Assembly: GCA_964559455.1 (NCBI GenBank)
Contig: CAZLHO010000003.1
Span: 42,963-106,962, forward strand
From: an uncultured Fibrobacteraceae bacterium
GTDB taxonomy: Bacteria; Krumholzibacteriota; Krumholzibacteriia; LZORAL124-64-63
Direction: 5' to 3'
Length of the DNA stretch: 64,000 nt
Shown in pieces: positions 13,528 to 33,501 of the stretch. Each line of letters opens with the position of its first letter. Position 1 is the stretch's first letter. Both the position numbers and the translations under genes were made by a program. The notes beneath the pieces were generated by a model, which saw nothing but the letters and a program-made list of their open reading frames with translations, had not been told where the DNA came from and searched no databases.

Positions 13528-14673
13528 CTAGAAGACGTCCACGTAGAGCCCGTCGCGCATCAGGGGGCGCGGGCCGTCGGGGCCGTCGAGGTCGACCGAG
13601 ACGACCCGGATGCGGGGCTGCACCTCGGGGATGTAGACGCGGTCGATGTGGACCACGGCCTCCGGCGAGGAGAAGTCGCCCGGGCCCACGACGCCGCCGA
13701 AGTGGTCGCTGCGCCCGAAGGCCACGTGCAGGCCCAGCTTCTCGTCCAGCAGGATGCTGCCGGTCGGCGCCAGGCCGAAGTCGCCGAGCACGCCCAGGCC
13801 CAACTCCGAGAGGTTGGCGTAGGCCGGCTCGTCGACGATGCGGCGGGCCTCGGCCCTGCTCGCCTCGCCCTCGCTCAGCACTGCGACGGCGCGGTTGCCC
13901 TCGATGCGGTAGACGACGACCTCGTCGCCGAACTGCACGGGCAGCTCGCCGCGGCCGCCGCTGGGGTCGCCCGGGCGCTCGCCCTCGTAGGGCACGATGT
14001 AGGTCTCGCCCGAGGGCAGGTTGCCGGCGACGCCGTTGGCGGGGAAGAGGCCGCCCGAGGCGTGGCTCTCGCGGTGGCGCAGGTCCAGGTCGAGCCGGTG
14101 CTCGCGGCCGTCGGCGGCCAGGACCAGGCGGGCCCCGACGGCCGGATCCAGCAGCTCCTTGAGCGCCAGCACGCGCCGGTTGACCTCGCCGTAGTCGATC
14201 CTCAGGGCGGGGATCATCGACGGCAGGAAGCCGGGCATCGTCGCGGCCCGCAGGGCGCGCCCGCGGCAGGCCACCTTCATCGGCGCGGTGGCCGAGAGCT
14301 CGGTCGGGGCCAGCACCATGCTGTGGGCCGCGAAGAGCTCGGCGAAGGGCAGGGTCGCGCGGCCGGCCAGCTCGTCGGCGTGGTGCAGCGCCGCGCCACC
14401 GGGGGCCGGGACGCAGTCCGGCGGCAGGTCGGCGTTGTTGCCCCCGGCGTTGCGGTACCAGGCCAGGGTCACCGTTGCCGGGGCGCCGGCGGCGCCGTCC
14501 AGCAGGCGGACCCACTCGGCGGCCATCCCGCGCCGGGCGCGCCAGTCGGGGTTGTCGGCCACGCGGGCGTCGGGCAGGTCCACGATCACGGCCAGGCCGC
14601 GATCGTCGTCGCCGGGAAGGAAGACGCGCCGGACCAGTTGGACGAGGTCGTCTGCGGACAGGGATTCGTTCAT
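13528..14673 (-). CDS. Hypothetical protein, possibly aminopeptidase-like (M29-type)
   Basis: ATG at 14673 (MNESLSADDLVQLV...). 381 aa. Upstream part of the longer ORF is Arg-rich artefact. Functional call is weak. Confidence 0.5.
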   Translation of the reverse strand: MNESLSADDLVQLVRRVFLPGDDDRGLAVIVDLPDARVADNPDWRARRGMAAEWVRLLDGAAGAPATVTLAWYRNAGGNNADLPPDCVPAPGGAALHHADELAGRATLPFAELFAAHSMVLAPTELSATAPMKVACRGRALRAATMPGFLPSMIPALRIDYGEVNRRVLALKELLDPAVGARLVLAADGREHRLDLDLRHRESHASGGLFPANGVAGNLPSGETYIVPYEGERPGDPSGGRGELPVQFGDEVVVYRIEGNRAVAVLSEGEASRAEARRIVDEPAYANLSELGLGVLGDFGLAPTGSILLDEKLGLHVAFGRSDHFGGVVGPGDFSSPEAVVHIDRVYIPEVQPRIRVVSVDLDGPDGPRPLMRDGLYVDVF

Positions 14674-14854
14674 GGGGATCGCTCCGGAGTCTGGAGAGGT
14701 GGGATGACCGTGCCGGGCGGCAGTATAGCATCGTCCCCGGGCCGCGGGAAGGATTTGGGTGGCACTCCACGCGCCCATGTGGCTATGTTGCAACCGGAAA
14801 ACGGCGCGGCCCCCTTCCGGGACTCCGCCCCGCAACGTCTGCAAGGAGCTCCGC

Positions 14855-15979
14855 ATGAGCCAGAACCGCGAGACCAACCTCGCCCTTTTCATCGATTTCG
14901 ACAACGTCGCCCTGGGCGCGCGCGACGCGCGCAAGCGCTTCGACATCCGCCCCGTGCTCGAGCGCATCCTCGAGAAGGGCAAGATCATCATCAAGAAGGC
15001 CTATGCGGACTGGAGCTACTACCAGGACTACATGGCCGACCTGCACGGGGCCGCGATCGAGCTGATCGAGGTGCCCTCGCCCCGGGTCAGCGGCAAGAAC
15101 AGCGCCGACATCCGCCTGGTCGTGGACGCCATGGACCTGTGCTACAGCAAGGACCACATCGACACCTTCGTCATCATCTCGGGCGACTCCGACTTCTCGC
15201 CCCTGGTGTCGAAGCTGCGCGAGAACAACAAGTCGGTCATCGGCATCGGCATGAAGGATTCCAGCTCGAAGCTGCTGATCCGCAACTGCGACGAGTTCAT
15301 CTTCTACGACGACATCATGCACGCGCCGGCGCCGGCTCGCGCGGTGCGTCTGGACGACGTCCCGCCCGAGAAGCGCAAGCTCTTCAGCCTGATCCTGACC
15401 ACCCTGCAGGGCCTGATGCTCGAGCACAAGGGCGTGCTCTACTCGTCGCTGATCAAGGACACGATCAAGCGCAAGAAGCCCGACTTCAATGAGGGCAACT
15501 GGGGCTACGGCTCGTTCGGCGAGCTGCTGGAGGACGCCCAGGCCCACGGCCTGCTCTCCGCCCGCCGCGACGAGGCCGCCGGCGGCACCTGGGTCGTCGA
15601 GGCCCTGGGCGGCGAGGCCGCGCCGGCGCGCCAGGGCAACGGACGCAAGACCTCGCGCCGGCGTTCGCGCCGCCGGGGTGGCGCCGGAGCCCGCGAGGGC
15701 GCCGACAGCCAGGCCGCGGCCGAGACCCCGGCCGAGAAGAAGGCGTCGGCCGCAGCGGCCGAGAAGAAGGCGCCGGCTCCCGCGGCGGAGGCCGCCCCGG
15801 CGAAGAAGGGCGCGAAGAAGACGACGGCCGCCAAGGCCACGGCCGCGAAGAAGAAGACGACGGCGAAGAAGACGACCGCCGCCAAGAAGACGACGGCGAA
15901 GAAGACGACGGCCAAGAAGACCACCACGCGCAAGAAGACCGCCAAGAAGGCCGCGACGAAGAAGGCGGCCGGCAGCTAG
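14855..15979 (+). CDS. NYN-domain (LabA-like) + OST-HTH/LOTUS protein with Lys/Ala/Thr-rich histone-H1-like C-terminal tail
   Basis: ATG 14855 with RBS aaggag. LALFIDFDNVALG NYN signature. KRKLFSLILTTLQGLM...GYGSFGELLEDAQ OST-HTH-like region. ~110-aa tail of AKK/TTAKK repeats. Confidence 0.8.
   Translation: MSQNRETNLALFIDFDNVALGARDARKRFDIRPVLERILEKGKIIIKKAYADWSYYQDYMADLHGAAIELIEVPSPRVSGKNSADIRLVVDAMDLCYSKDHIDTFVIISGDSDFSPLVSKLRENNKSVIGIGMKDSSSKLLIRNCDEFIFYDDIMHAPAPARAVRLDDVPPEKRKLFSLILTTLQGLMLEHKGVLYSSLIKDTIKRKKPDFNEGNWGYGSFGELLEDAQAHGLLSARRDEAAGGTWVVEALGGEAAPARQGNGRKTSRRRSRRRGGAGAREGADSQAAAETPAEKKASAAAAEKKAPAPAAEAAPAKKGAKKTTAAKATAAKKKTTAKKTTAAKKTTAKKTTAKKTTTRKKTAKKAATKKAAGS
15700..15976 (+). 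repeat. Low-complexity coding repeat (AAKK/TTAKK units) encoding the Lys/Ala-rich tail
   Basis: Reiterated gccaagaag / acgacggcgaagaag units. Confidence 0.6.
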
Positions 15980-16003
15980 CCGGCCGCGCCGCCGGTCTTC
16001 GCG

Positions 16004-18328
16004 ATGGAGAGAGCGATGCCGCAGCCCACGGCCAAGACGCCCTGGCGCCAGGACTTGAACCATTTCCGTCGCCGCGACCCGGTCCTCTACGAGAAGATCA
16101 TCCGCTTCCTGATGCTCACCCTGCACAAGGAGGGCATCATGCGGATGGAGCAGATCGAGCTGAACGTCAGCCGCATCCTGGGCAACCCCGACTTCCTGCA
16201 CTGGACCGATCCCAACCGCCTCGAGCCCGCCCTGACCATGAAGGAGCTGCAGGCCCTGCGGGAGCTGGTGATCCAGTACGCGTCGCACCACTGGGACGAC
16301 GCCCGCATGAAGCAGCTGATCATGCTCGCGATCACGAAGGACGTCGCCCTGCGCCTCGAGGAGAAGGCCGACGACCCCTTCAGCACCTGGGACGGGATCC
16401 GCGCCGAGGTGCTGAAGTTCTGCGACCTGGCGCCGGGCGGCCCCGCGCTGCCCATGTCCGCCGTCCGCGGCGCCCGCGTGGCCCTGATTCGCCGCCTGCT
16501 CACCGACCAGCTCGAGCTGCTGCGCGTGGCTCGCGACACCCTGACCGTCCGCGACATCGCCGACATCATCACGCGCGTGATCGGCCCGGCGCGGGGCCTG
16601 GGCAAGCTGGGCGGCAAGGCCACCGGCTTCATCCTGGCCCACGACGTGCTGAACAAGGCCCGCGACGAGGGCCGTCCGGTCGGCGACTTCACGACCCCCC
16701 TGACCTACTACGTCCGCTCCGACGTGATGCTCGAGTTCGTCAAGATGAACGGGCTCGAGGAGGTCATCGACATCAAGTACGGCGACGTCGAGGAGCTGCG
16801 CAGCGAGTACCGTCTGCTCAAGCAGTTCTTCCGCAACGGACGCTTCCCGCGCTACGTCGTCTCGAACCTGGCGCGGATGCTGCGTCGGCTGGGCGAGGTG
16901 CCGCTGGTGGTGCGCTCGAGCAGCCTGCTCGAGGATCGCCTGGGCGCCGCCTTCTCGGGCAAGTACCAGAGCGTCTTCGTGGCCAACCAGGGTCCCCTGA
17001 GGCAGCGGCTGAGCGAACTGCTGGGCGCGATCACGCAGGTCTACGCCAGCATCTTCACGCCGGACGCCATCCAGTACCGCGACGAGCGGGGCCTGCTGGA
17101 CTTCAAGGAGGAGATGGCCTGCATCATCCAGCCGGTCGTGGGCCAGCGCCTGGGCCGCTACTGGCTGCCGGCCTTCGCGGGTGTCGCCTTCAGCCTGAAC
17201 GAGTACCGCTGGTCGCCGCGGCTCGAGCGCGGGAACGGCATGGTGCGGCTGGTGGCCGGCCTGGGCACGCGCGCCGTCGACCGCGTGGGCGAGGACTATC
17301 CCCGCCTCTTCAGCCCCGGCCAGCCCCGCCTGCGCACCAACGTGCATCCCGACGAAGTGCTGCGCTACAGCCAGCGCCTGGTCGACGTCATCGACCTGGA
17401 GGAGAACAAGTTCGCCACGATCCCCCTGGAGGCCCTGCTGCGGGAGCGGGGGGGGCGCTTCCCGGCCGGCGAGCGCATCTTCTCGGTCTTCCGCGACGGC
17501 GACCTGCTGCCGCAGACGGGCATGCTCTTCAACATCGACCCCCGCGACCTGATCGTCACCTTCAACGGCTTGATCGAGCGCACGCCCTTCGCCGCGCAGA
17601 TGAAGGCGATCCTGGACACCCTGGCCGAATCCTGGCGGGCGCCCGTCGACGTGGAGTTCGCCCACGACGGCCGCAAGCTCTACATCCTGCAGTGCCGCCC
17701 CCAGAGCCGCGGCGAGAAGCACGAGAAGGTGCGCATCCCCGGCGGCGTGCCTTCCGCCGACCGCATCTTCTCGGCGAACCGCTTCGTGCAGATGGCCCAC
17801 GTGCGCGACATCGACTACGTGGTCTACGTGCCGCCCGAGGCCTACGAGCAGGTGGAGTTCTACGACGACCTGGTGGAGATCGGCCGCGCGGTGGGCGAAC
17901 TGAACCGGCTGCTGCCCCACCGCCGCTTCATCCTGATCGGTCCCGGGCGCTGGGGAAGCCGCGGCGACATCAAGCTGGGCGTGCGCGTGGAGTACGCGGA
18001 CATCAACCACTCGCGGATGCTGGTCGAGGTGGCCCGCCGCAAGGGCGGCTACGTGCCCGACGTCTCCTTCGGCACGCACTTCTTCCAGGACCTGGTCGAG
18101 GCCGACATCGCCTACCTGCCCCTCTACCCCGACGAGCCGGACGTGGTCTTCAACGACGACTTCCTGGCCCGCTCCCCGAGCGTCCTGGCCGAGGTCCTGC
18201 CCCGCCGCGCCGAGCTGGCCGACGTGGTGCGCGTGATCCGCGTGCCGGACGTGACCGGGGGCCGCCGCCTGCATGTGGCCATGGACGCCGACCGCGACCG
18301 GGCGCTGGCCTACATCGGCGAGGGGTAG
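16004..18328 (+). CDS. PEP/pyruvate-binding (PPDK_N, PEP-synthase N-terminal-like ATP-grasp) domain protein, 774 aa, without phospho-His domain
   Basis: Central region matches the pyruvate phosphate dikinase nucleotide-binding domain (GKLGGKATGF; LVVRSSSLLEDRLGAAFSGKYQSVFV). ~190-aa N-terminal and ~250-aa C-terminal regions of unknown function. Begins 24 bp after the NYN gene. Confidence 0.8.
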   Translation: MERAMPQPTAKTPWRQDLNHFRRRDPVLYEKIIRFLMLTLHKEGIMRMEQIELNVSRILGNPDFLHWTDPNRLEPALTMKELQALRELVIQYASHHWDDARMKQLIMLAITKDVALRLEEKADDPFSTWDGIRAEVLKFCDLAPGGPALPMSAVRGARVALIRRLLTDQLELLRVARDTLTVRDIADIITRVIGPARGLGKLGGKATGFILAHDVLNKARDEGRPVGDFTTPLTYYVRSDVMLEFVKMNGLEEVIDIKYGDVEELRSEYRLLKQFFRNGRFPRYVVSNLARMLRRLGEVPLVVRSSSLLEDRLGAAFSGKYQSVFVANQGPLRQRLSELLGAITQVYASIFTPDAIQYRDERGLLDFKEEMACIIQPVVGQRLGRYWLPAFAGVAFSLNEYRWSPRLERGNGMVRLVAGLGTRAVDRVGEDYPRLFSPGQPRLRTNVHPDEVLRYSQRLVDVIDLEENKFATIPLEALLRERGGRFPAGERIFSVFRDGDLLPQTGMLFNIDPRDLIVTFNGLIERTPFAAQMKAILDTLAESWRAPVDVEFAHDGRKLYILQCRPQSRGEKHEKVRIPGGVPSADRIFSANRFVQMAHVRDIDYVVYVPPEAYEQVEFYDDLVEIGRAVGELNRLLPHRRFILIGPGRWGSRGDIKLGVRVEYADINHSRMLVEVARRKGGYVPDVSFGTHFFQDLVEADIAYLPLYPDEPDVVFNDDFLARSPSVLAEVLPRRAELADVVRVIRVPDVTGGRRLHVAMDADRDRALAYIGEG

Positions 18329-18350
18329 GCCGGGGCGCGGTCCCGGGCGG

Positions 18351-18388
18351 AGAAAAGAAAACCGGCGGCCCCTCCGGGACCGCCGGTT
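18351..18388. terminator. Bidirectional intrinsic terminator (A-tract + hairpin)
   Basis: AAAAGAAA then AACCGGCGG-cccctccggga-CCGCCGGTT then TCTTC. On the minus strand the hairpin is followed by UUUCUUUUCU, downstream of gdhA. Confidence 0.6.
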
Positions 18389-18474
18389 CTTCACTCTGCG
18401 GGAGGTCGCGACCGATTCGCGAGCGACTTTCGCGAAGCGAGGAGTCGAGCGGATCGCGTCGCGGCCGAGCCCGC

Positions 18475-19761
<1,287 letters not shown>

Positions 19762-28778: not shown

Positions 28779-30083
28779 CTAGGGCAGGAAGCCGCGCACG
28801 TCCGAGAGCTTCTGCGGCAGGTACTCCTCGATCACGTAGTTCAGCCCGTGCTTGGCCAGGGCCTGCTGCTCGGCGCGCACCCCCATCTTGATCATCTGCA
28901 GCAGCGCCAGCTGCCACGGCTTGTGGTGGATCACGAAGGGGTCGTTCTTCAGGGCGTCCTTGGCCCGCTTGATGTCCACGTCCTTCAGGGGGTGGGTGGG
29001 CAGCTCGTAGTCCACGATGTCCTGCGGCGTGATGCCCAGGAAACGGGCCTGGGGCACGCAGAAGAAGCGGTTCAGGTGGGCGGCGTTGCCGCTGCCCACC
29101 TTCAGGGTGCGGTAGATGTTCATGAAGCCGTAGGGGTCGCCGTCGACGAAGACGTAGACCGGGATCTTCTTGGCGTCCGACAGGCGGCGCACGAAGCGGC
29201 GGCAGGCGCGCGTGGGCACGCCGCCCATCGAGATCAGGATGCAGCCGGCGTGCTTCCAGTAGTTGTGCTTCACCAGGCGCTGGAACATGCCCGCGGTCTC
29301 GATGCAGAGGATGAACTTGGCGTCGGTCTCGAAGCCCAGCTCCTCGACCGAGATCGGGATCGAGTAGGCGCCGCTGCCGAACTTCGTGCAGTCGATGCGC
29401 AGCTCCTCGCCGGTCTCGCCGTCGCGGTCGATCACGACCAGGCGCCCGGCCACGTCGCCGCCCTTCTCCTCGGGCACGAAGCCCATCTGCTCGCGGTTCA
29501 CGCCGTAGAAGGCCTCGACGTCCTCCATCACCGCGTCCGACTCGGGCTGCTCGCCGAAGCGGGCGTCCGCCCAGTTCTTGCTGACGTAGTAGGCCTCTCG
29601 CTTGGTGGCGATGTCGTCGGTCTCGACCAGTTCCTTGGACAGGGCCATCATCTTCAGGGTCTGGGCGAAGGTCTTGACCGTGCTCACGGTCAGGGTGCGC
29701 TCCTTGGTGCGGCCGCGCAGCTCGAAGAAGCCGACCTTGGGCTGGTAGCTGACGTTCTGCAGCGAGCGCAGCGGGAAGCGCAGCGACGGCTTGTCGCCCT
29801 TCAGGATCCGGCCTCGCACCGTGGCCGCCTCGTCGTGGATGCGCCCGAGCAGGGCGCCGCGGTCGTCGGGACCCTTCTTGGCGGCTCCGGCGGCCTTGCC
29901 CACGGCGGCCTTTGCCTGAGCGGTCTTCACGGGGGCCGTCCTGGCCGGCGCTTTTCCGGCGGCGGCCTTCTTCGCCGGCGCCGTCTTCTTCGGCGGCGGC
30001 CCGAAGGCCAGCTCGGCCTGCTTGTCGCCGGCCTTGGCGGGCGCCTTCTTCCCGGCGGTCTTCTTGCGCTTGTCCTGCGGCAA
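28779..30083 (-). CDS. top6A: Type IIB DNA topoisomerase VI subunit A (Spo11/Top6A homologue) with Lys/Ala-rich N-terminal extension
   Basis: TKREAYYVS (catalytic Tyr, 5Y-CAP). ILCIETAGMF and YVFVDGDPYG (Toprim DxD). ~75-aa KKAPAKAG/KTAPAKKAAAGK tail. TTG start at 30083. Confidence 0.8.
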   Translation of the reverse strand: MPQDKRKKTAGKKAPAKAGDKQAELAFGPPPKKTAPAKKAAAGKAPARTAPVKTAQAKAAVGKAAGAAKKGPDDRGALLGRIHDEAATVRGRILKGDKPSLRFPLRSLQNVSYQPKVGFFELRGRTKERTLTVSTVKTFAQTLKMMALSKELVETDDIATKREAYYVSKNWADARFGEQPESDAVMEDVEAFYGVNREQMGFVPEEKGGDVAGRLVVIDRDGETGEELRIDCTKFGSGAYSIPISVEELGFETDAKFILCIETAGMFQRLVKHNYWKHAGCILISMGGVPTRACRRFVRRLSDAKKIPVYVFVDGDPYGFMNIYRTLKVGSGNAAHLNRFFCVPQARFLGITPQDIVDYELPTHPLKDVDIKRAKDALKNDPFVIHHKPWQLALLQMIKMGVRAEQQALAKHGLNYVIEEYLPQKLSDVRGFLP

Positions 30084-30110: not shown

Positions 30111-31619
30111 CTAGAGCCCGTAGAGCTCGCCGTACTTCTGGTTCAGGTAGTCCGCGAAGGGCGCGATCGACAGGTCGCGTCCGGTGACCTCGCGGCACAG
30201 GTCGGGGGCGGCCAGCAGCCGGCCCTTGACGTGGATCCGGCCCCGCAGCCAGTTCAGCAGCGGCGCGAACTCGCCCCGCGACGCCTGCTGCTGCAGGTCG
30301 CCCAGGTCCTCGGCGGCCTTCGCGTAGAACTGCGCCGCGTAGAGGTTCCCCAGGCTGTAGGTCGGGAAGTAGCCGAAGCTGCCGAAGGCCCAGTGGATGT
30401 CCTGCAGCACGCCCTCGGCGTCGTCGGTCGGCGTCAGCCCCAGGTACTCGCGCATCTTCTCGTTCCAGAGCCCGGGCAGGTCGGCCACGGCGATCTCGTC
30501 GCGGAAGAGCGCCGTCTCGAGCTCGGTGCGCAGCACGATGTGCAGGTTGTAGGTCATCTCGTCGGCCTCGATGCGCACGGGCGAGCGGCGCACGACGTTG
30601 GCGGCGCGATACAGGGCCTCGTCGTCGGCGTCGCCGAAGGCCTCGGGGAAGAGGCGCGTCAGCAGCGGCCGGCAGTGGGACAGGAAGGCGCGGCTGCGGC
30701 CGACCATGTTCTCCCAGAGCCGGGACTGCGATTCGTGGATGCCCAGGCTCGCCGCCTCTCCCATCGGGGTGCCGGCGTGCTCGACCGGGAAGCCCTGCTC
30801 GTAGAGGCCATGGCCGCCCTCGTGCAGGGTCGAGAAGAGCGAGTTCGAAAGGTCGCCGGTGTCGTAGTGGGTCGTCAGGCGCACGTCGCGCGGATCGACT
30901 CCCGAGGTGAAGGGATGCCGCGAGACGTCCAGGCGGCCGCGCCGGAAATCGAAGCCCATGATCTCCAGCACCCGCGTCGCTAGCTCCTGCTGCCGGGCGA
31001 CGGGGAAGCTGCCGCGCAGCAGGGCGTCGTCGTGGCGTTCGCCGCGGTCCACGACGGCCGCGACCAGGGGCACGAGCAGATTCTTCAGCTCGGCCAGCAG
31101 GGGCAGCAGGGCCGCGGTGGTCATGCCGGGCTCGTATTCGTCGAGCATGGCGTCGTAGGGCTCGCCGGCGTAGCCCACGCATTCGGCCTCGCGGCGGCGC
31201 AGCGCCGCCAGGCGCTCCAGGTTGGGGGCGAAGCGCGCCCAGTCGCGGGCGGCGCGGGCCTCGGCCCAGGCCTGCTGGGCCAGGCTGCCTTCGCGGGTCA
31301 GCTCGGTCACCAGCTCCTTCGGCACCTTCACGGCCCGGTCGCGGTCGCGGCGCGCCTCGCGCACGTTGGCCGCCTGCTCGGGCGTCAGGCCGTCGGCGGC
31401 CGCGAGCTCGTCGATCATCGCGCCCAGGGCCGGGTCGACCACCCGGTCGTGGACGATGCCGGACAGGGTGGCCCGCGAGCGGGCCCGCCCGGCGATCCCC
31501 TCGGGGGGCATGTAGGTCTCCTGATCCCAGGACAGCAGGGACTGGGCGGCGTTCAGGTCGTGGACCTCGCGGATATGCGCGAGGAAATCGGCATGGATTC
31601 CGGCGATACGTTCGGACAT
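30111..31619 (-). CDS. M32 carboxypeptidase (Taq-type thermostable carboxypeptidase family)
   Basis: HEGGHGLYE HExxH motif, HESQSRLWEN and DIHW motifs. ATG 31619 preceded by GGGAGG. Confidence 0.85.
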   Translation of the reverse strand: MSERIAGIHADFLAHIREVHDLNAAQSLLSWDQETYMPPEGIAGRARSRATLSGIVHDRVVDPALGAMIDELAAADGLTPEQAANVREARRDRDRAVKVPKELVTELTREGSLAQQAWAEARAARDWARFAPNLERLAALRRREAECVGYAGEPYDAMLDEYEPGMTTAALLPLLAELKNLLVPLVAAVVDRGERHDDALLRGSFPVARQQELATRVLEIMGFDFRRGRLDVSRHPFTSGVDPRDVRLTTHYDTGDLSNSLFSTLHEGGHGLYEQGFPVEHAGTPMGEAASLGIHESQSRLWENMVGRSRAFLSHCRPLLTRLFPEAFGDADDEALYRAANVVRRSPVRIEADEMTYNLHIVLRTELETALFRDEIAVADLPGLWNEKMREYLGLTPTDDAEGVLQDIHWAFGSFGYFPTYSLGNLYAAQFYAKAAEDLGDLQQQASRGEFAPLLNWLRGRIHVKGRLLAAPDLCREVTGRDLSIAPFADYLNQKYGELYGL

Positions 31620-31680
31620 GGGGAACCTCCCGGGTTCGGGCACGGGGAGGAAAAGGTGACGCCGCCGGGAGGGGGCGGCC

Positions 31681-33393
31681 TTACATCTTGCGGCTGCGTT
31701 CCAGGGTGTCGGTGAGCGTGACGATGATGTCCTCGCGCTCGTCCTCCTTCAGGCCCAGGATGTCGCGCAGGGCATCCCCGATGTGCGGGATGTACTTCTG
31801 GATGTAGCTCTGCTTCTTCAGGGCCTCGCGCTCGCGCACCCGGCGCCGGATGTGGCGCTGCAGCTGCCGGCCGGCCTCCTGCAGGCCCAGCCGGATCTCC
31901 TTGACGATCTCCGGGTAGTGGGCCACGGCCTCCTTGCTCTCCGACGTGAAGGGCACCCACACCGAGGCCATGTGCACCAGGATCACCAGCGGGCCGGTGG
32001 GCAGCGCGCCCCGCGACTGCTGCATGCCGTAGCTGCGCCAGTTGTTGGCGAGCACCGCCTTGTGGATGGCGCAGGCCGAGGCCTGGTAGAGCAGGGGCAC
32101 GCGGTTGGCGAAGCGCAGCACCTCGGCCAGCTCGTCGCCGGGCAGGTCGCCGCCGTAGGCCAGCCCGACCTCGATCTGGAAGGGGTTGCCGCGGTAGACG
32201 GCCGCGGGACGGGTCACCGCCGTGTAGAAGTCGGCCCGGATGCGCTGCTCCAGGCCCTTGAGCACCAGCTCGGCCCCGATCGGCGACAGGCAGTCGGTGG
32301 GCGGCGAGGGGATGCGCGTCTCGCCGATGGCGTCCAGCAGCGCCTGCACGTCCTCCTGGCCCAGCAGCCGCGGATTCTTGCGGGCGGGAAAGCCCGCGGC
32401 CTCCAGGACCTGGCCCGCGGTCTTCGGGCCGACGCGGCAGAATTCGTTGCGCAGGAACGCGGTCAGGTTGCGGCTCTTGGTCTCCTTGAGCATCTGCAGC
32501 ATGCGGCCCAGCTCGACCCCGTAGGGGTGGGGCCGGATCTCGGCGGCCTCGACCGGCAGCTCGTCGGCGGCCCGGGCGTAGACCACCTCCTCGCCGCGCG
32601 GGTTGCGGTAGACCAGGCGCACGTGGGGGTTGGCCACGGCCGTCTGCTGCAGGTAGGTGTCGACGGAGTGGTGGCCGCGCTTGTACGAACCCGCCAGCTC
32701 GATCTCCACGCGGGTGCCGTGCTCCACGTCCCAGGGCGCGGTCTCGTCCTTCTGGACCACGGGCTCGTTGCGCTTCATGTCCAGGGTCAGCTCGCAGCGC
32801 CGGGCCTCGGGCATGTCCTTGGTGCGGCTCAGGACGACCACCGGCTTGCCCGTGGTCAGCTGCCCGTACATGCCGGCGGCCGAGATGCCGATGCCCTGCT
32901 GGCCCCGGCTCTGGCGCAGGCTGTGGAACTTCGAGCCGTAGAGCAGCTTGCCGAAGATGCGCGGCACCTGGGCGCGCACGATGCCCGGGCCGTTGTCCTG
33001 GACCACGACCCGGAAGCGCTCCTCGCGCTGCGGAGGGGCGGCGCCGCGGCGTCGGCCGTTGCTCTTGCCGTTGCCGTTGTCCTCGGCGTGGGCCTCGCCG
33101 CCGTCCATCTCCAGGGAGGCCGCCGCGCGGTTCTTGCCGTTGCCGTTGGCCTGCACGGGCTGGATCTCGACCAGGATGTCGGGCAGGATCCCGGCCTCCT
33201 CGCAGGCGTCCAGGGCGTTGTCGACGGCTTCCTTGATCGTGGTCAACAGGGCCTTGGCCGGGGAGTCGAAGCCCAGCAGGTGGCGGTTCTTCGTGAAGAA
33301 CTCGCTGATCGAGATCTCCCGCTGCTTCTTCGCCATGCTCTGCGCGGTGGCGGCGGTGTGGTTGCGGGATGACTTGCGCGCGGTGGCAGGCAT
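31681..33393 (-). CDS. top6B: DNA topoisomerase VI subunit B (GHKL ATPase + transducer)
   Basis: Bergerat-fold N-box EAVDNALDA, G1 DNGPGI, G2 GQQGIGISAAG, H2TH-like and transducer regions. ATG 33393 with RBS aaggaacggag. Low-complexity insert between the N-box and G1. Confidence 0.8.
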   Translation of the reverse strand: MPATARKSSRNHTAATAQSMAKKQREISISEFFTKNRHLLGFDSPAKALLTTIKEAVDNALDACEEAGILPDILVEIQPVQANGNGKNRAAASLEMDGGEAHAEDNGNGKSNGRRRGAAPPQREERFRVVVQDNGPGIVRAQVPRIFGKLLYGSKFHSLRQSRGQQGIGISAAGMYGQLTTGKPVVVLSRTKDMPEARRCELTLDMKRNEPVVQKDETAPWDVEHGTRVEIELAGSYKRGHHSVDTYLQQTAVANPHVRLVYRNPRGEEVVYARAADELPVEAAEIRPHPYGVELGRMLQMLKETKSRNLTAFLRNEFCRVGPKTAGQVLEAAGFPARKNPRLLGQEDVQALLDAIGETRIPSPPTDCLSPIGAELVLKGLEQRIRADFYTAVTRPAAVYRGNPFQIEVGLAYGGDLPGDELAEVLRFANRVPLLYQASACAIHKAVLANNWRSYGMQQSRGALPTGPLVILVHMASVWVPFTSESKEAVAHYPEIVKEIRLGLQEAGRQLQRHIRRRVREREALKKQSYIQKYIPHIGDALRDILGLKEDEREDIIVTLTDTLERSRKM

Positions 33394-33501
33394 GAGACTC
33401 CGTTCCTTCCTGCCGGGAAGGGCTGACCAGAGGTTGCTGTTCGTGCGGCCCAACAGTACGGGAGGGCCCGGGCGATTGCAAGCCGGGCCTGACGGCGGGG
33501 G

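What the first reader, a model, noticed from the sequence alone, without database searches (positions are those of the whole stretch)
14855..18328. NYN-LOTUS RNA-binding protein with histone-H1-like tail directly upstream of an orphan PPDK_N kinase-like protein
Seen: a 374-aa protein combines an N-terminal NYN (LabA-like) domain, an OST-HTH/LOTUS-like domain and a ~110-aa (A/T)AKK repeat tail. It is followed 24 bp downstream by a 774-aa protein containing only the nucleotide-binding half of PEP synthase / pyruvate phosphate dikinase, flanked by two unknown domains, with no phospho-His carrier domain. Established: NYN and OST-HTH domains are predicted RNase/RNA-binding modules, and Lys/Ala tails bind nucleic acid non-specifically. 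Inference: a two-gene nucleic-acid-associated module of unknown function. The same genome also places a Lys/Ala tail on Top6A, which suggests a lineage-specific use of H1-like tails.
Basis: partly seen in the sequence, partly recalled or inferred. Interest (0 to 1): 0.5.

Follow-up and report, generated by a model that had tools for sequence, protein, structure and literature searches.

The report
RNase gene beside GDH-linked kinase-like gene
The two genes are real and their domains were read correctly, but they are probably neighbours by accident: the first is a known kind of bacterial RNA-cutting protein with a lineage-specific lysine-rich tail, and the second belongs to a large uncharacterised enzyme family whose usual genomic partner is glutamate dehydrogenase.

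Summary
Both ORFs exist as described. Gene 1 (14855-15979, 374 aa) has a NYN domain (Pfam 2.7e-36) and a LOTUS domain that is weak here but hit in 15 of 17 orthologues. It ends in a 118-aa basic tail. NYN+LOTUS is the stereotypic bacterial "MARF1-like" architecture, reported in 2010 to lack conserved neighbours. The Lys-rich tail is confined to the Krumholzibacteria-like lineage.

Gene 2 (16004/16016-18328) has a helical N-domain, a PPDK_N ATP-grasp with the catalytic motifs kept, and a family-specific C-domain with an invariant His. No canonical phospho-His or PEP-binding domain was found. It is not an orphan or a fragment: more than 7000 full-length relatives were recovered.

The proposed two-gene module is not supported. 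The pair is adjacent in only 4 of 11 related lineages, in 1 of 80 NYN loci across species and in 0 of 80 loci of the PPDK_N-like family. In contrast, 53 of 60 assessable loci of that family have a glutamate dehydrogenase (GDH) gene next to it. In the window GDH lies 146 bp downstream, convergent. Two syntenic relatives lack PPDK_N and GDH together.

Many relatives carry an extra nucleotidyltransferase domain. The substrate is unknown. Two other independent NYN-GDH-PPDK_N juxtapositions remain unexplained.

The parts
13528..14673 (-). 381-aa protein of unknown function, transcribed divergently from the NYN gene across a 181-bp spacer. Context: it is the most consistently conserved neighbour of the NYN gene in this lineage.
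   Evidence: No Pfam, NCBIfam, PADLOC or PDB sequence match. Present directly upstream of NYN, on the opposite strand, in L001, L002, L007, L010-L015, L020 and L171-L173.
14855..15979 (+). Gene for the NYN-LOTUS protein with a basic tail (374 aa plus stop).
   Evidence: ORF. AAGGAG ribosome-binding site 7 nt upstream. Thousands of homologues, the listed top 120 at 65-81% identity over residues 1-265.
14879..15307 (+). NYN (LabA-like / LK-nuclease) domain, residues 9-151, with acidic residues D14, D16, D85, D91, D111 and D113 invariant.
   Evidence: Pfam PF01936, E=2.7e-36. Profile hit to PDB 2qip (VPA0982) at 2.4e-10 and a weak hit to the MARF1 NYN domain 6fdl. Invariant columns listed.
15362..15610 (+). 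OST-HTH/LOTUS-like winged-helix region, about residues 170-252.
   Evidence: PF12872 scores E=0.091 in this sequence. It is hit in 15 of 17 aligned orthologues, best 1e-6. The region is strongly conserved.
15623..15976 (+). Low-complexity basic C-terminal region, residues 257-374: an Arg-rich stretch, an Ala/Glu/Pro linker, then (T/A)AKK-type repeats.
   Evidence: 23% K and 31% K+R. HC2 hit of 24.4 bits, below the cut-off of 40. DNA tandem repeats of period 15 and 30 at 15850-15964. Orthologues conserve the composition but not the sequence.
15965..15987 (.). Perfect 9-bp G+C hairpin spanning the NYN stop codon, in the short spacer before the next gene. No U-tract follows on the + strand.
   Evidence: It was flagged only on the - strand by the terminator scan, so it is not evidence of termination between the two genes.
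16004..18328 (+). Gene for the PPDK_N-like protein: 774 aa from ATG 16004, or more likely 770 aa from ATG 16016, which follows GGAGAG.
   Evidence: The 100%-identical database protein P0001 is 770 aa. AlphaFold model with pLDDT 83 and pTM 0.82.
16043..16573 (+). All-helical N-terminal domain, about residues 14-190, with no family assignment.
   Evidence: Secondary structure of the model. No Pfam or NCBIfam hit. Absent from the 575-590-aa paralogue found in other genomes.
16601..17734 (+). PPDK_N ATP-grasp (nucleotide-binding) domain, residues 200-577. It keeps the motifs GGK (K205), RSS...ED (R304-D311), D549-x-E551 and Q563-x-R565.
   Evidence: PF01326, E=3e-53. Foldseek top hits are rifampin phosphotransferase 5hv3 (2e-14), PEP synthase 2ols, HpeI 9goj and PPDK. 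Invariant columns. Motif-by-motif alignment with E. coli PpsA.
17735..18325 (+). Family-specific C-terminal alpha/beta domain, residues 578-774, with invariant motifs GPGRWGS-x-GD and SFGTH(692)FF. The His692 codon is at 18077-18079.
18358..18390 (.). 15-bp-stem hairpin between the convergent PPDK_N-like and GDH genes. It has an A-run before it and a T-rich stretch after it, so it looks like a bidirectional terminator.
18475..19761 (-). Glutamate dehydrogenase gene (428 aa), convergent with the PPDK_N-like gene across a 146-bp spacer. It is the conserved genomic partner of the PPDK_N-like family.
   Evidence: PF02812 and PF00208. Scores below the NCBIfam GdhA cut-offs. Homologues at 60-75% identity lie next to the PPDK_N-like gene in 53 of 60 assessable loci.

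Best explanation
The window holds two functionally separate genes that happen to be adjacent and are probably co-transcribed in this one clade.

Gene 1 is a stand-alone bacterial 'MARF1-like' ribonuclease. Its NYN/LabA-type metal-dependent nuclease domain would cut RNA. [quoted passage not shown] The lineage-specific Lys-rich tail would add non-specific electrostatic affinity for nucleic acid. All three activities are inferred.

Gene 2 is a short form of a large uncharacterised family of dikinase-type ATP-grasp enzymes. The ATP site is intact, which is shown by motif conservation. The canonical swivelling phospho-His domain and the PEP/pyruvate-binding barrel are replaced by a helical N-domain and a family-specific C-domain with an invariant Gly-Thr-His. 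I infer that it uses ATP to phosphorylate an unknown acceptor, possibly through that His. I also infer that the acceptor belongs to glutamate/2-oxoglutarate/ammonium metabolism or is GDH itself, because the family's conserved neighbour is GDH.

In this clade a PPDK_N-like + GDH pair sits between the NYN gene and a TPR gene. That placement created the NYN-PPDK_N adjacency.
For: NYN-LOTUS is a known architecture.
- Anantharaman et al. 2010 describe LK-nuclease (DUF88) + OST-HTH as the stereotypic bacterial form, with no conserved gene neighbourhoods (PMC2848206).
- Core-only forms of 243-262 aa dominate in Acidobacteriota and other phyla. K-rich tails (17-28% K) occur only in the Krumholzibacteria-like loci.

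The pair is not conserved.
- Of 80 species-level NYN loci, only L010 (window clade) has the window-type PPDK_N-like gene downstream.
- L011, L013, L015, L020, L171, L172 and L173 keep the divergent 381-aa gene and NYN but have other genes downstream.
- None of 80 loci of the PPDK_N-like family has the NYN orthologue.

The family is linked to GDH.
- GDH lies upstream in 53 of 60 assessable loci, and co-directional in 52 of them.
- The link spans 37 of 50 clusters at 70% identity.
- By form: nucleotidyltransferase-bearing long form 37 with GDH and 1 without; 920-aa form 11 and 1; window-type short form 7 and 6.
- The Acidobacteria locus L008 has GDH downstream and convergent, as do the window, L001 and L007.

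The two genes are gained or lost together. L011 and L013 keep the order PGM, NAGPA, 381-aa gene, NYN, TPR, sigma-54 regulator, kinase. Both lack PPDK_N and GDH between NYN and TPR.

The enzyme looks active. The ATP-grasp motifs are invariant and align with E. coli PpsA. The fold matches rifampin phosphotransferase, PEP synthase and PPDK.

It is not a fragment. More than 7000 hits were recovered, and nearly all of the 120 listed are full length at about 770 aa. The C-domain profile finds 1787 clusters.
Against: The two genes lie on the same strand, 24-36 bp apart, with no terminator between them. They are therefore probably co-transcribed here.

The adjacency has persisted across relatives whose PPDK_N-like proteins are only 64-77% identical.

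Two other independent loci place a NYN-LOTUS gene upstream of, and co-directional with, a GDH + PPDK_N-like pair. These are L164, with 33% NYN identity, and L027, a Thermoanaerobaculia MAG with 55% NYN identity and a 28%-identical PPDK_N-like gene. One such locus per 80 is roughly what chance would give, about 0.2-0.4 by my estimate. The same order and orientation in all three cases is unexplained.

For window-type short forms the GDH link is weaker, at 7 of 13. One member of the window clade, L002, has lost it.

No activity, substrate or phospho-His has been demonstrated for any member of the family.
Confidence: 0.68

Rival explanations
1. The NYN-LOTUS protein and the PPDK_N-like protein form a functional two-gene nucleic-acid module. 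For example, the ATP-grasp enzyme might phosphorylate the RNase, its tail or RNA ends, or the two might act on a common RNA substrate.
For: Same strand, a 24-36 bp gap and no intervening terminator. The adjacency is kept in four species-level lineages: the window, L001/L010, L002/L003 and L007. Two further independent juxtapositions, in L164 and L027, have the same order and orientation.
Against: The adjacency is absent in 7 of 11 related genomes that keep the rest of the synteny. It is absent from 78 of 80 NYN loci and from 79 of 80 loci of the PPDK_N-like family. The PPDK_N-like gene is gained or lost together with GDH, not with NYN. The published survey of NYN+LOTUS proteins found no conserved neighbourhoods. 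Nothing in the PPDK_N-like protein resembles a nucleic-acid-binding domain.
Confidence: 0.1
2. The PPDK_N-like protein, together with its nucleotidyltransferase-bearing relatives, is specifically a covalent regulator of glutamate dehydrogenase. It would phosphorylate or nucleotidylate GDH in response to nitrogen or energy status, by analogy with GlnE acting on glutamine synthetase. On this view it is not a small-molecule enzyme.
For: Very strong GDH adjacency. Long forms end in a Pol-beta-type nucleotidyltransferase domain (PF01909); that this is the enzyme class GlnE and GlnD use is my own knowledge. A metallophosphoesterase gene, a possible reversing enzyme, lies directly downstream in 24 loci. 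The adjacency survives rearrangement, being co-directional in most loci and convergent in the window clade and L008.
Against: There is no biochemical precedent for such a modification of bacterial GDH in the papers searched. The window's short form lacks the nucleotidyltransferase and the N-terminal extension. Every characterised PPDK_N-type enzyme I compared phosphorylates small molecules. Gene adjacency cannot tell a regulator from a pathway partner.
Confidence: 0.2
3. The 774-aa ORF is a truncated or mis-assembled PEP synthase or PPDK that has lost its His and PEP-binding domains. On this view it is a pseudogene or an assembly artefact.
For: It carries only the PPDK_N domain of the canonical three. 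NCBIfam PEP synthase models match only the N-terminal part, at 61.9 bits against a cut-off of 739.75.
Against: The same full-length architecture of about 770 aa recurs at 98-100% coverage in nearly all of the 120 listed hits, at 46-78% identity, from independent assemblies. The flanking domains are strongly conserved, with a mean column identity of 65% and many invariant residues. The model is confident, at pLDDT 83. Identical sequence was recovered on two separate contigs.
Confidence: 0.01

Closest known systems
Bacterial LK-nuclease (DUF88/NYN, LabA-like) + OST-HTH/LOTUS proteins, also called 'MARF1-like' proteins (Anantharaman, Zhang and Aravind 2010, PMC2848206; Ding et al. 2020, PMC7498356)
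   Same: The same two-domain core in the same order, with the acidic residues of the nuclease conserved and no conserved operon partner across phyla.
   Different: This lineage adds a basic tail of 120-195 aa, Lys/Thr/Ala-rich in most members, which most family members lack. Other lineages have other tails, for example long mixed-charge tails in Burkholderiales and short KPRWRPR-type tails in Thermodesulfobacteriota and related Deltaproteobacteria-labelled MAGs. No bacterial member has a demonstrated cellular role.
Histone H1-like / Hc2-type Lys/Ala-rich bacterial nucleoid proteins (Pfam PF07382, NCBIfam NF038052 and NF038053)
   Same: The composition and short-period K/A/T repeats of the tail. 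There are weak sub-threshold hits, and 11 of 17 orthologues hit HC2.
   Different: The scores fall below the family cut-offs. The similarity is compositional, and here the segment is an appendage on an enzyme rather than a free-standing protein.
PEP synthase, pyruvate phosphate dikinase and rifampin phosphotransferase (three-domain His-swivel dikinases)
   Same: An ATP-grasp nucleotide-binding domain with the same catalytic motifs and fold. The overall logic is also similar: an ATP-grasp plus a substrate domain plus a third small domain carrying an invariant His.
   Different: There is no detectable PEP-utilizers swivel domain and no PEP/pyruvate-binding barrel. The domain order differs: helical N-domain, ATP-grasp, C-domain. 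The C-domain has its own motifs, GPGRWGS and SFGTHFF.
[quoted passage not shown]
   Same: They are a precedent for a PPDK_N protein that lacks its own canonical His domain. HpeI, PDB 9goj, is among the top structural matches.
   Different: Those subunits carry no extra domains (the HpeI chain 9goj is 330-387 residues), and, by my own knowledge, their His-carrier partner is encoded next to them. Here the protein is 770 aa with two additional conserved domains, and no such partner is adjacent.

Membership tests
Bacterial NYN (LK-nuclease) + OST-HTH/LOTUS proteins | N-terminal NYN/LabA-like (PF01936) nuclease domain | tested here: met
   E=2.7e-36 and 125.7 bits against a cut-off of 24.2, residues 9-151. 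PDB 2qip hit at 2.4e-10.
Bacterial NYN (LK-nuclease) + OST-HTH/LOTUS proteins | Conserved acidic residues of the PIN-like active site | tested here: met
   D14, D16, D85, D91, D111 and D113 are invariant in 17 orthologues. Mapping them onto catalytic positions is an inference, not a structural test.
Bacterial NYN (LK-nuclease) + OST-HTH/LOTUS proteins | OST-HTH/LOTUS domain C-terminal to the nuclease | tested here: met
   This sequence scores below threshold, at E=0.091 and 13.1 bits against 23.8. However, 15 of 17 aligned orthologues hit PF12872, best 1e-6, in a region of high conservation.
Bacterial NYN (LK-nuclease) + OST-HTH/LOTUS proteins | Ribonuclease activity and RNA binding | not testable with these tools
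   This needs an in vitro assay.
Histone H1-like / Hc2 proteins (PF07382, NF038052, NF038053) | Score above the family's curated cut-off | tested here: not met
   HC2 scores 24.4 bits against 40. NF038053 scores 20.1 against 80, and NF038052 scores 14.2 against 135. The resemblance is compositional only.
PEP synthase / pyruvate phosphate dikinase | PPDK_N ATP-grasp nucleotide-binding domain with catalytic motifs | tested here: met
   PF01326, E=3e-53. Invariant K205, R304, D549, E551, Q563 and R565. Aligned with E. coli PpsA. Fold matches.
PEP synthase / pyruvate phosphate dikinase | PEP-utilizers phospho-His swivel domain (PF00391, GG-x-T-S-H motif) | tested here: not met
PEP synthase / pyruvate phosphate dikinase | PEP/pyruvate-binding TIM-barrel domain (PF02896) and a full-length equivalog score | tested here: not met
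   No hit. TIGR01418 scores 61.9 bits against a cut-off of 739.75, and NF005057 scores 60.2 against 598.
Rifampin phosphotransferase | ATP-grasp plus rifampin-binding domain plus C-terminal His swivel domain | tested here: not met
   Only the ATP-grasp aligns, over about 400 columns with TM about 0.3. NF041857 scores 36.7 bits against a cut-off of 999.
Split dikinases (PpsAB, AcvAB, CreHI, HpeI type) | Adjacent gene for a His-carrying partner subunit | tested here: not met
   The neighbours are the NYN gene and GDH. No PtsI-like His domain was found by tblastn in the window or in any locus held at that point.
   Adjacent in 4 of 11 lineages of the same clade. One of 80 NYN loci has the window-type gene downstream, plus one distant case, L027. 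None of 80 loci of the PPDK_N-like family has the NYN orthologue; one has a 33%-identical paralogue, L164.
GDH-linked PPDK_N-like family (delimited here, not a curated family) | PPDK_N domain followed by the C-domain with GPGRWGS and S-x-G-(T/S)-H-F-F motifs | tested here: met
   The motifs are invariant in 29 family members. They are also present in the 581-aa paralogue and in the long forms. A profile of the domain finds 1787 clusters.
GDH-linked PPDK_N-like family (delimited here, not a curated family) | A glutamate dehydrogenase gene adjacent | tested here: met
   In the window, GDH at 18475-19761 (-) lies 146 bp after the stop codon. Across the family, 53 of 60 assessable loci have GDH adjacent.

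The most novel reading that the evidence does not exclude
The PPDK_N-like family is an unrecognised, widespread partner system of bacterial glutamate dehydrogenase. It comprises at least 1787 clusters at 50% identity. Many members are fused to a nucleotidyltransferase, and many have a second paralogue and a metallophosphoesterase nearby. It would be either a covalent (phospho- or nucleotidyl-) regulator of GDH, or a new ATP-dependent phosphotransfer step in glutamate/2-oxoglutarate metabolism that uses a non-canonical His-bearing domain. The recurrent NYN-LOTUS gene just upstream (window clade, L164, L027) might then reflect an occasional post-transcriptional control layer.
Probability: 0.3. 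Interest if true: 0.7.

Novelty: new variant of a known kind. Interest (0 to 1): 0.38.

Why it matters
The finding as stated would have suggested a new RNA-associated kinase/nuclease system. The evidence shows this is most likely a chance juxtaposition, so that lead should be dropped.

Two smaller points remain.

First, a known bacterial RNase architecture (NYN+LOTUS) has acquired a histone-H1-like tail in one candidate phylum, where Top6A also carries a basic extension. This hints at a lineage habit of adding polycationic segments to nucleic-acid enzymes.

Second, and more useful, a large unstudied family of dikinase-type ATP-grasp proteins is tied to glutamate dehydrogenase across several phyla. 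Its members are currently annotated 'PEP/pyruvate-binding domain-containing protein' or mis-annotated 'pyruvate, water dikinase'. That link gives a concrete and testable starting point for assigning a function, and a reason to correct the annotation.

Tried and rejected
**Is the C-domain a diverged phospho-His swivel domain?** The question stays open.
- Pfam at E<=10 on 19 members found nothing.
- A profile search against PDB sequences found nothing.
- hhalign against PpsA and PtsI, and then against 7 genuine His domains, gave probability below 1%.
- Foldseek on the domain model found nothing below E=1.
- The isolated-domain model is poor exactly over the conserved motifs, with pLDDT below 50 for domain residues 73-115.

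**A degenerate Pol-beta nucleotidyltransferase reading of GPGRWGS...D...D.** I considered this from the motif spacing alone. It is not supported by any search.

**Fragment or assembly artefact.** Rejected.

**Defence-system membership.** PADLOC gives only a weak domain-level NYN hit and nothing for the other two proteins.

**RNA elements.** There are no Rfam families and no tRNAs in the window, and no sigma-70-like promoter in 14500-18700.

**Literature.** I found no paper linking PPDK_N proteins to GDH or describing this family.

**The 381-aa upstream gene.** No family or PDB relative was found. My impression that its motifs resemble M29 aminopeptidases is untested.

**Unavailable tool.** The afdb50 structure library was not available.

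Full report
**1. What is in the sequence**

The window is about 70% G+C. Two co-directional ORFs lie at 14855-15979 (374 aa) and 16004-18328 (774 aa).

The first ORF has AAGGAG 7 nt before its ATG, and its orthologues begin at the same Met. The second ORF more probably starts at the ATG at 16016, which follows GGAGAG. That start gives the 770-aa form found in public assemblies, P0001, which is 100% identical.

The spacer between the genes is 24-36 bp. It holds a G+C hairpin over the stop codon but no U-tract, so the genes are probably co-transcribed.

A strong hairpin at 18358-18390 separates the second gene from a convergent glutamate dehydrogenase gene (GDH) at 18475-19761.

A 381-aa gene of unknown function lies 181 bp upstream of the first ORF and is transcribed divergently, at 13528-14673.

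**2. The NYN-LOTUS protein**

*Domains.* Pfam gives NYN at 2.7e-36. OST-HTH reaches only 0.091 in this sequence, and HC2 scores below its cut-off. In an alignment of 17 orthologues, 15 hit OST-HTH (best 1e-6) and 11 hit HC2. A profile of the alignment finds the LabA-like structure 2qip and, weakly, the MARF1 NYN domain. The acidic residues D14, D16, D85, D91, D111 and D113 are invariant.

*Distribution.* The family is very widespread and well conserved, at 43-68% identity. It occurs in Krumholzibacteria, Acidobacteriota, Thermodesulfobacteriota, Burkholderiales, Actinomycetota, Planctomycetota and Methylomirabilota.

*Prior description.* Anantharaman, Zhang and Aravind (2010) described this architecture as the stereotypic bacterial form: LK-nuclease (DUF88) plus OST-HTH. 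They noted that it has no conserved gene neighbourhoods and proposed a stand-alone RNA-degrading enzyme (PMC2848206). Ding et al. [quoted passage not shown]

*The tail.* The tail is the new element. In the window it is 118 aa, with 23% K and 31% K+R, and it is built on DNA repeats of 15 and 30 nt. Comparable tails with 17-28% K are found only in the Krumholzibacteria-like loci. Most Acidobacteriota and other members stop after the LOTUS domain, at 243-262 aa. Other lineages carry different low-complexity tails.

*Top6A.* The Top6A in the window (28782-30083, -) has a K/A/P-rich extension, but it is N-terminal.

**3. The PPDK_N-like protein**

*Sequence family.* Only PPDK_N is detected (3e-53, residues 202-577). 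The NCBIfam PEP synthase models match only that part and score far below their cut-offs. The protein is not an orphan or a fragment. More than 7000 relatives were recovered, and the listed ones are nearly all about 770 aa with 98-100% coverage at 46-78% identity.

*Structure.* An AlphaFold model built on 29 sequences has pLDDT 83 and pTM 0.82. It shows three parts:
- a helical N-domain, residues 14-190;
- the ATP-grasp, residues 200-577;
- an alpha/beta C-domain, residues 578-774.

Foldseek matches only the ATP-grasp. The hits are rifampin phosphotransferase, PEP synthase, HpeI and PPDK.

*ATP site.* The motifs GGK205, R304-SS...ED311, D549-x-E551 and Q563-x-R565 are invariant and align with those of E. 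coli PpsA.

*C-domain.* The C-domain has the invariant motifs GPGRWGS-x-GD and SFGTH692FF. These are shared with a shorter paralogue. A profile of the domain finds 1787 clusters at 50% identity. The listed hits have lengths that fit PPDK_N-containing architectures, about 580, 770, 920, 1060 and 1500-1650 aa, or are shorter sequences likely to be fragments.

**4. Are the two genes a module?**

*From the NYN side.* I examined 80 loci, one genome per species. Only L010 has the window-type gene downstream, and its PPDK_N-like protein is 77% identical to the window's.

*Within the Krumholzibacteria-like lineage.* The adjacency is present in the window, L001/L010, L002/L003 and L007. It is absent in L011, L013, L015, L020, L171, L172 and L173. 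All seven keep the divergent 381-aa gene next to NYN.

*From the PPDK_N side.* I examined 80 metagenomic loci whose proteins are 42-52% identical to the window's. None has the NYN orthologue.

*Gain or loss together.* L011 and L013 retain the order PGM, NAGPA, 381-aa gene, NYN, TPR, sigma-54 regulator, kinase. Both lack PPDK_N and GDH between NYN and TPR. So in this syntenic block the PPDK_N-like gene and GDH are present or absent together.

**5. The conserved partner is GDH**

A GDH at 60-75% identity to the window's lies upstream in 53 of 60 assessable loci of the PPDK_N-like family, and co-directional in 52. It is either directly adjacent or separated by one gene. That gene is a 575-590-aa paralogue made of the ATP-grasp and the C-domain.

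The sample is diverse. Median pairwise identity is 56%, and 37 of 50 clusters at 70% identity include a GDH-adjacent member.

Most members are about 1060 aa. They have an extra N-terminal segment and a C-terminal Pol-beta-type nucleotidyltransferase domain. Some are fused to the paralogue, giving proteins of about 1650 aa.

The GDH link by form:

| Form | With GDH | Without GDH |
|---|---|---|
| Nucleotidyltransferase-bearing long form | 37 | 1 |
| 920-aa form | 11 | 1 |
| Window-type short form | 7 | 6 |

In an Acidobacteria MAG the order is PPDK_N-like, ATP-cone/PRK, then a convergent GDH. A metallophosphoesterase gene follows the long form in 24 loci. Named members come from Latescibacteria, Acidobacteria, Holophagae and Ignavibacteriales/Melioribacteraceae, and all carry generic names. 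I found no paper on this association.

**6. An unexplained residue**

Two further independent loci place a NYN-LOTUS gene just upstream of, and co-directional with, a GDH + PPDK_N-like pair.
- L164: a response regulator, then a 516-aa NYN protein in which Pfam detects OST-HTH in the second half (the two-LOTUS reading rests on a weak second tblastn match), then GDH, then the long form.
- L027, a Thermoanaerobaculia MAG: NYN-LOTUS, then an ELFV dehydrogenase, then a PPDK_N-like gene of the paralogue type.

One such case per 80 loci is close to my rough chance expectation of about 0.2-0.4. That figure assumes a 12-kb window in a genome of about 4 Mb. Thirteen other Thermoanaerobaculia NYN loci lack the arrangement. 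The identical order and orientation in three lineages keeps a small probability alive for an occasional functional link.

**7. Mechanism**

*Shown:*
- the domain content of both proteins;
- conservation of the nuclease acidic residues;
- conservation of the ATP-grasp catalytic motifs;
- an invariant His in the C-domain;
- the neighbourhood statistics.

*Inferred:*
- The NYN protein is a Mg-dependent endoribonuclease. Its LOTUS domain selects G-rich or structured RNA, and its polycationic tail raises general affinity for nucleic acid.
- The PPDK_N-like protein binds ATP in the ATP-grasp and transfers phosphate to an acceptor bound by the helical N-domain, possibly through His692. This is analogous to the ATP-grasp / His / substrate-domain relay in rifampin phosphotransferase and PEP synthase.
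- The acceptor is GDH or a metabolite of the glutamate/2-oxoglutarate node.

Split dikinases show that a PPDK_N protein can work without its own canonical His domain. Their diagnostic adjacent His-carrier gene is missing here.

**8. Verdict**

The interpretation as a nucleic-acid module is not supported. Gene 1 is a new tail-bearing variant of a known family. Gene 2 is a member of a large uncharacterised family whose informative context is GDH. Interest is moderate and rests mainly on the GDH link.

Noticed in passing
window 13528-14673 (-): A 381-aa protein with no Pfam, NCBIfam, PADLOC or PDB relative is the constant divergent neighbour of the NYN-LOTUS gene in every Krumholzibacteria-like locus examined (L001, L002, L007, L010-L015, L020, L171-L173). 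It is absent next to NYN in other phyla. It is a better candidate than the PPDK_N-like gene for a lineage-level partner of the RNase.
   Followed up: partly
window 28782-30083 (-), 30114-31643 (-), 31684-33453 (-): Bacterial topoisomerase VI. Top6A has an N-terminal K/A/P-rich extension of about 85 aa and probably starts at a non-ATG codon. Top6B lies nearby, and an M32 carboxypeptidase gene sits between the two subunit genes. The same Top6A, M32, Top6B order is seen in L172.
   Followed up: partly
L090-L169, for example L128 1600-3342 and 3339-6524; L112 2787-7739: Most relatives of the PPDK_N-like protein are about 1060 aa, with a C-terminal Pol-beta nucleotidyltransferase domain (PF01909). 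They are preceded by a 575-590-aa paralogue. In some genomes the two are fused into proteins of about 1650 aa.
   Followed up: partly
24 loci, for example L099 7732-8661 (-) and L128 6527-7360 (-): A calcineurin-like metallophosphoesterase gene of about 287 aa lies immediately downstream of the long PPDK_N-like gene, mostly in convergent orientation. There is no homologue in the window.
   Followed up: partly
L008 9819-11165 (+): In an Acidobacteria MAG, an ATP-cone + phosphoribulokinase/uridine-kinase-family protein (448 aa) sits between the PPDK_N-like gene and the convergent GDH.
   Followed up: no
L164 1069-7739; L027 290-5011: Two independent loci have the order NYN-LOTUS, then GDH, then PPDK_N-like, all on one strand. 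They involve distant versions of all three genes. The count is near chance expectation, but the arrangement is the same as in the window clade.
   Followed up: partly
window 18358-18390: A 15-bp-stem hairpin flanked by an A-run and a T-rich stretch lies between the convergent PPDK_N-like and GDH genes. It looks like a bidirectional terminator.
   Followed up: no
window 15965-15987: A perfect 9-bp G+C hairpin is centred on the stop codon of the NYN gene, in the short spacer before the PPDK_N-like gene. No U-tract follows on the coding strand. Its role, if any, is unknown.
   Followed up: no
L010 and L011 (record titles): Two MAGs whose loci are syntenic with the Krumholzibacteria-like window are titled 'uncultured Fibrobacteraceae bacterium' in their records. 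This is probably a taxonomic mislabel of the bins.
   Followed up: no
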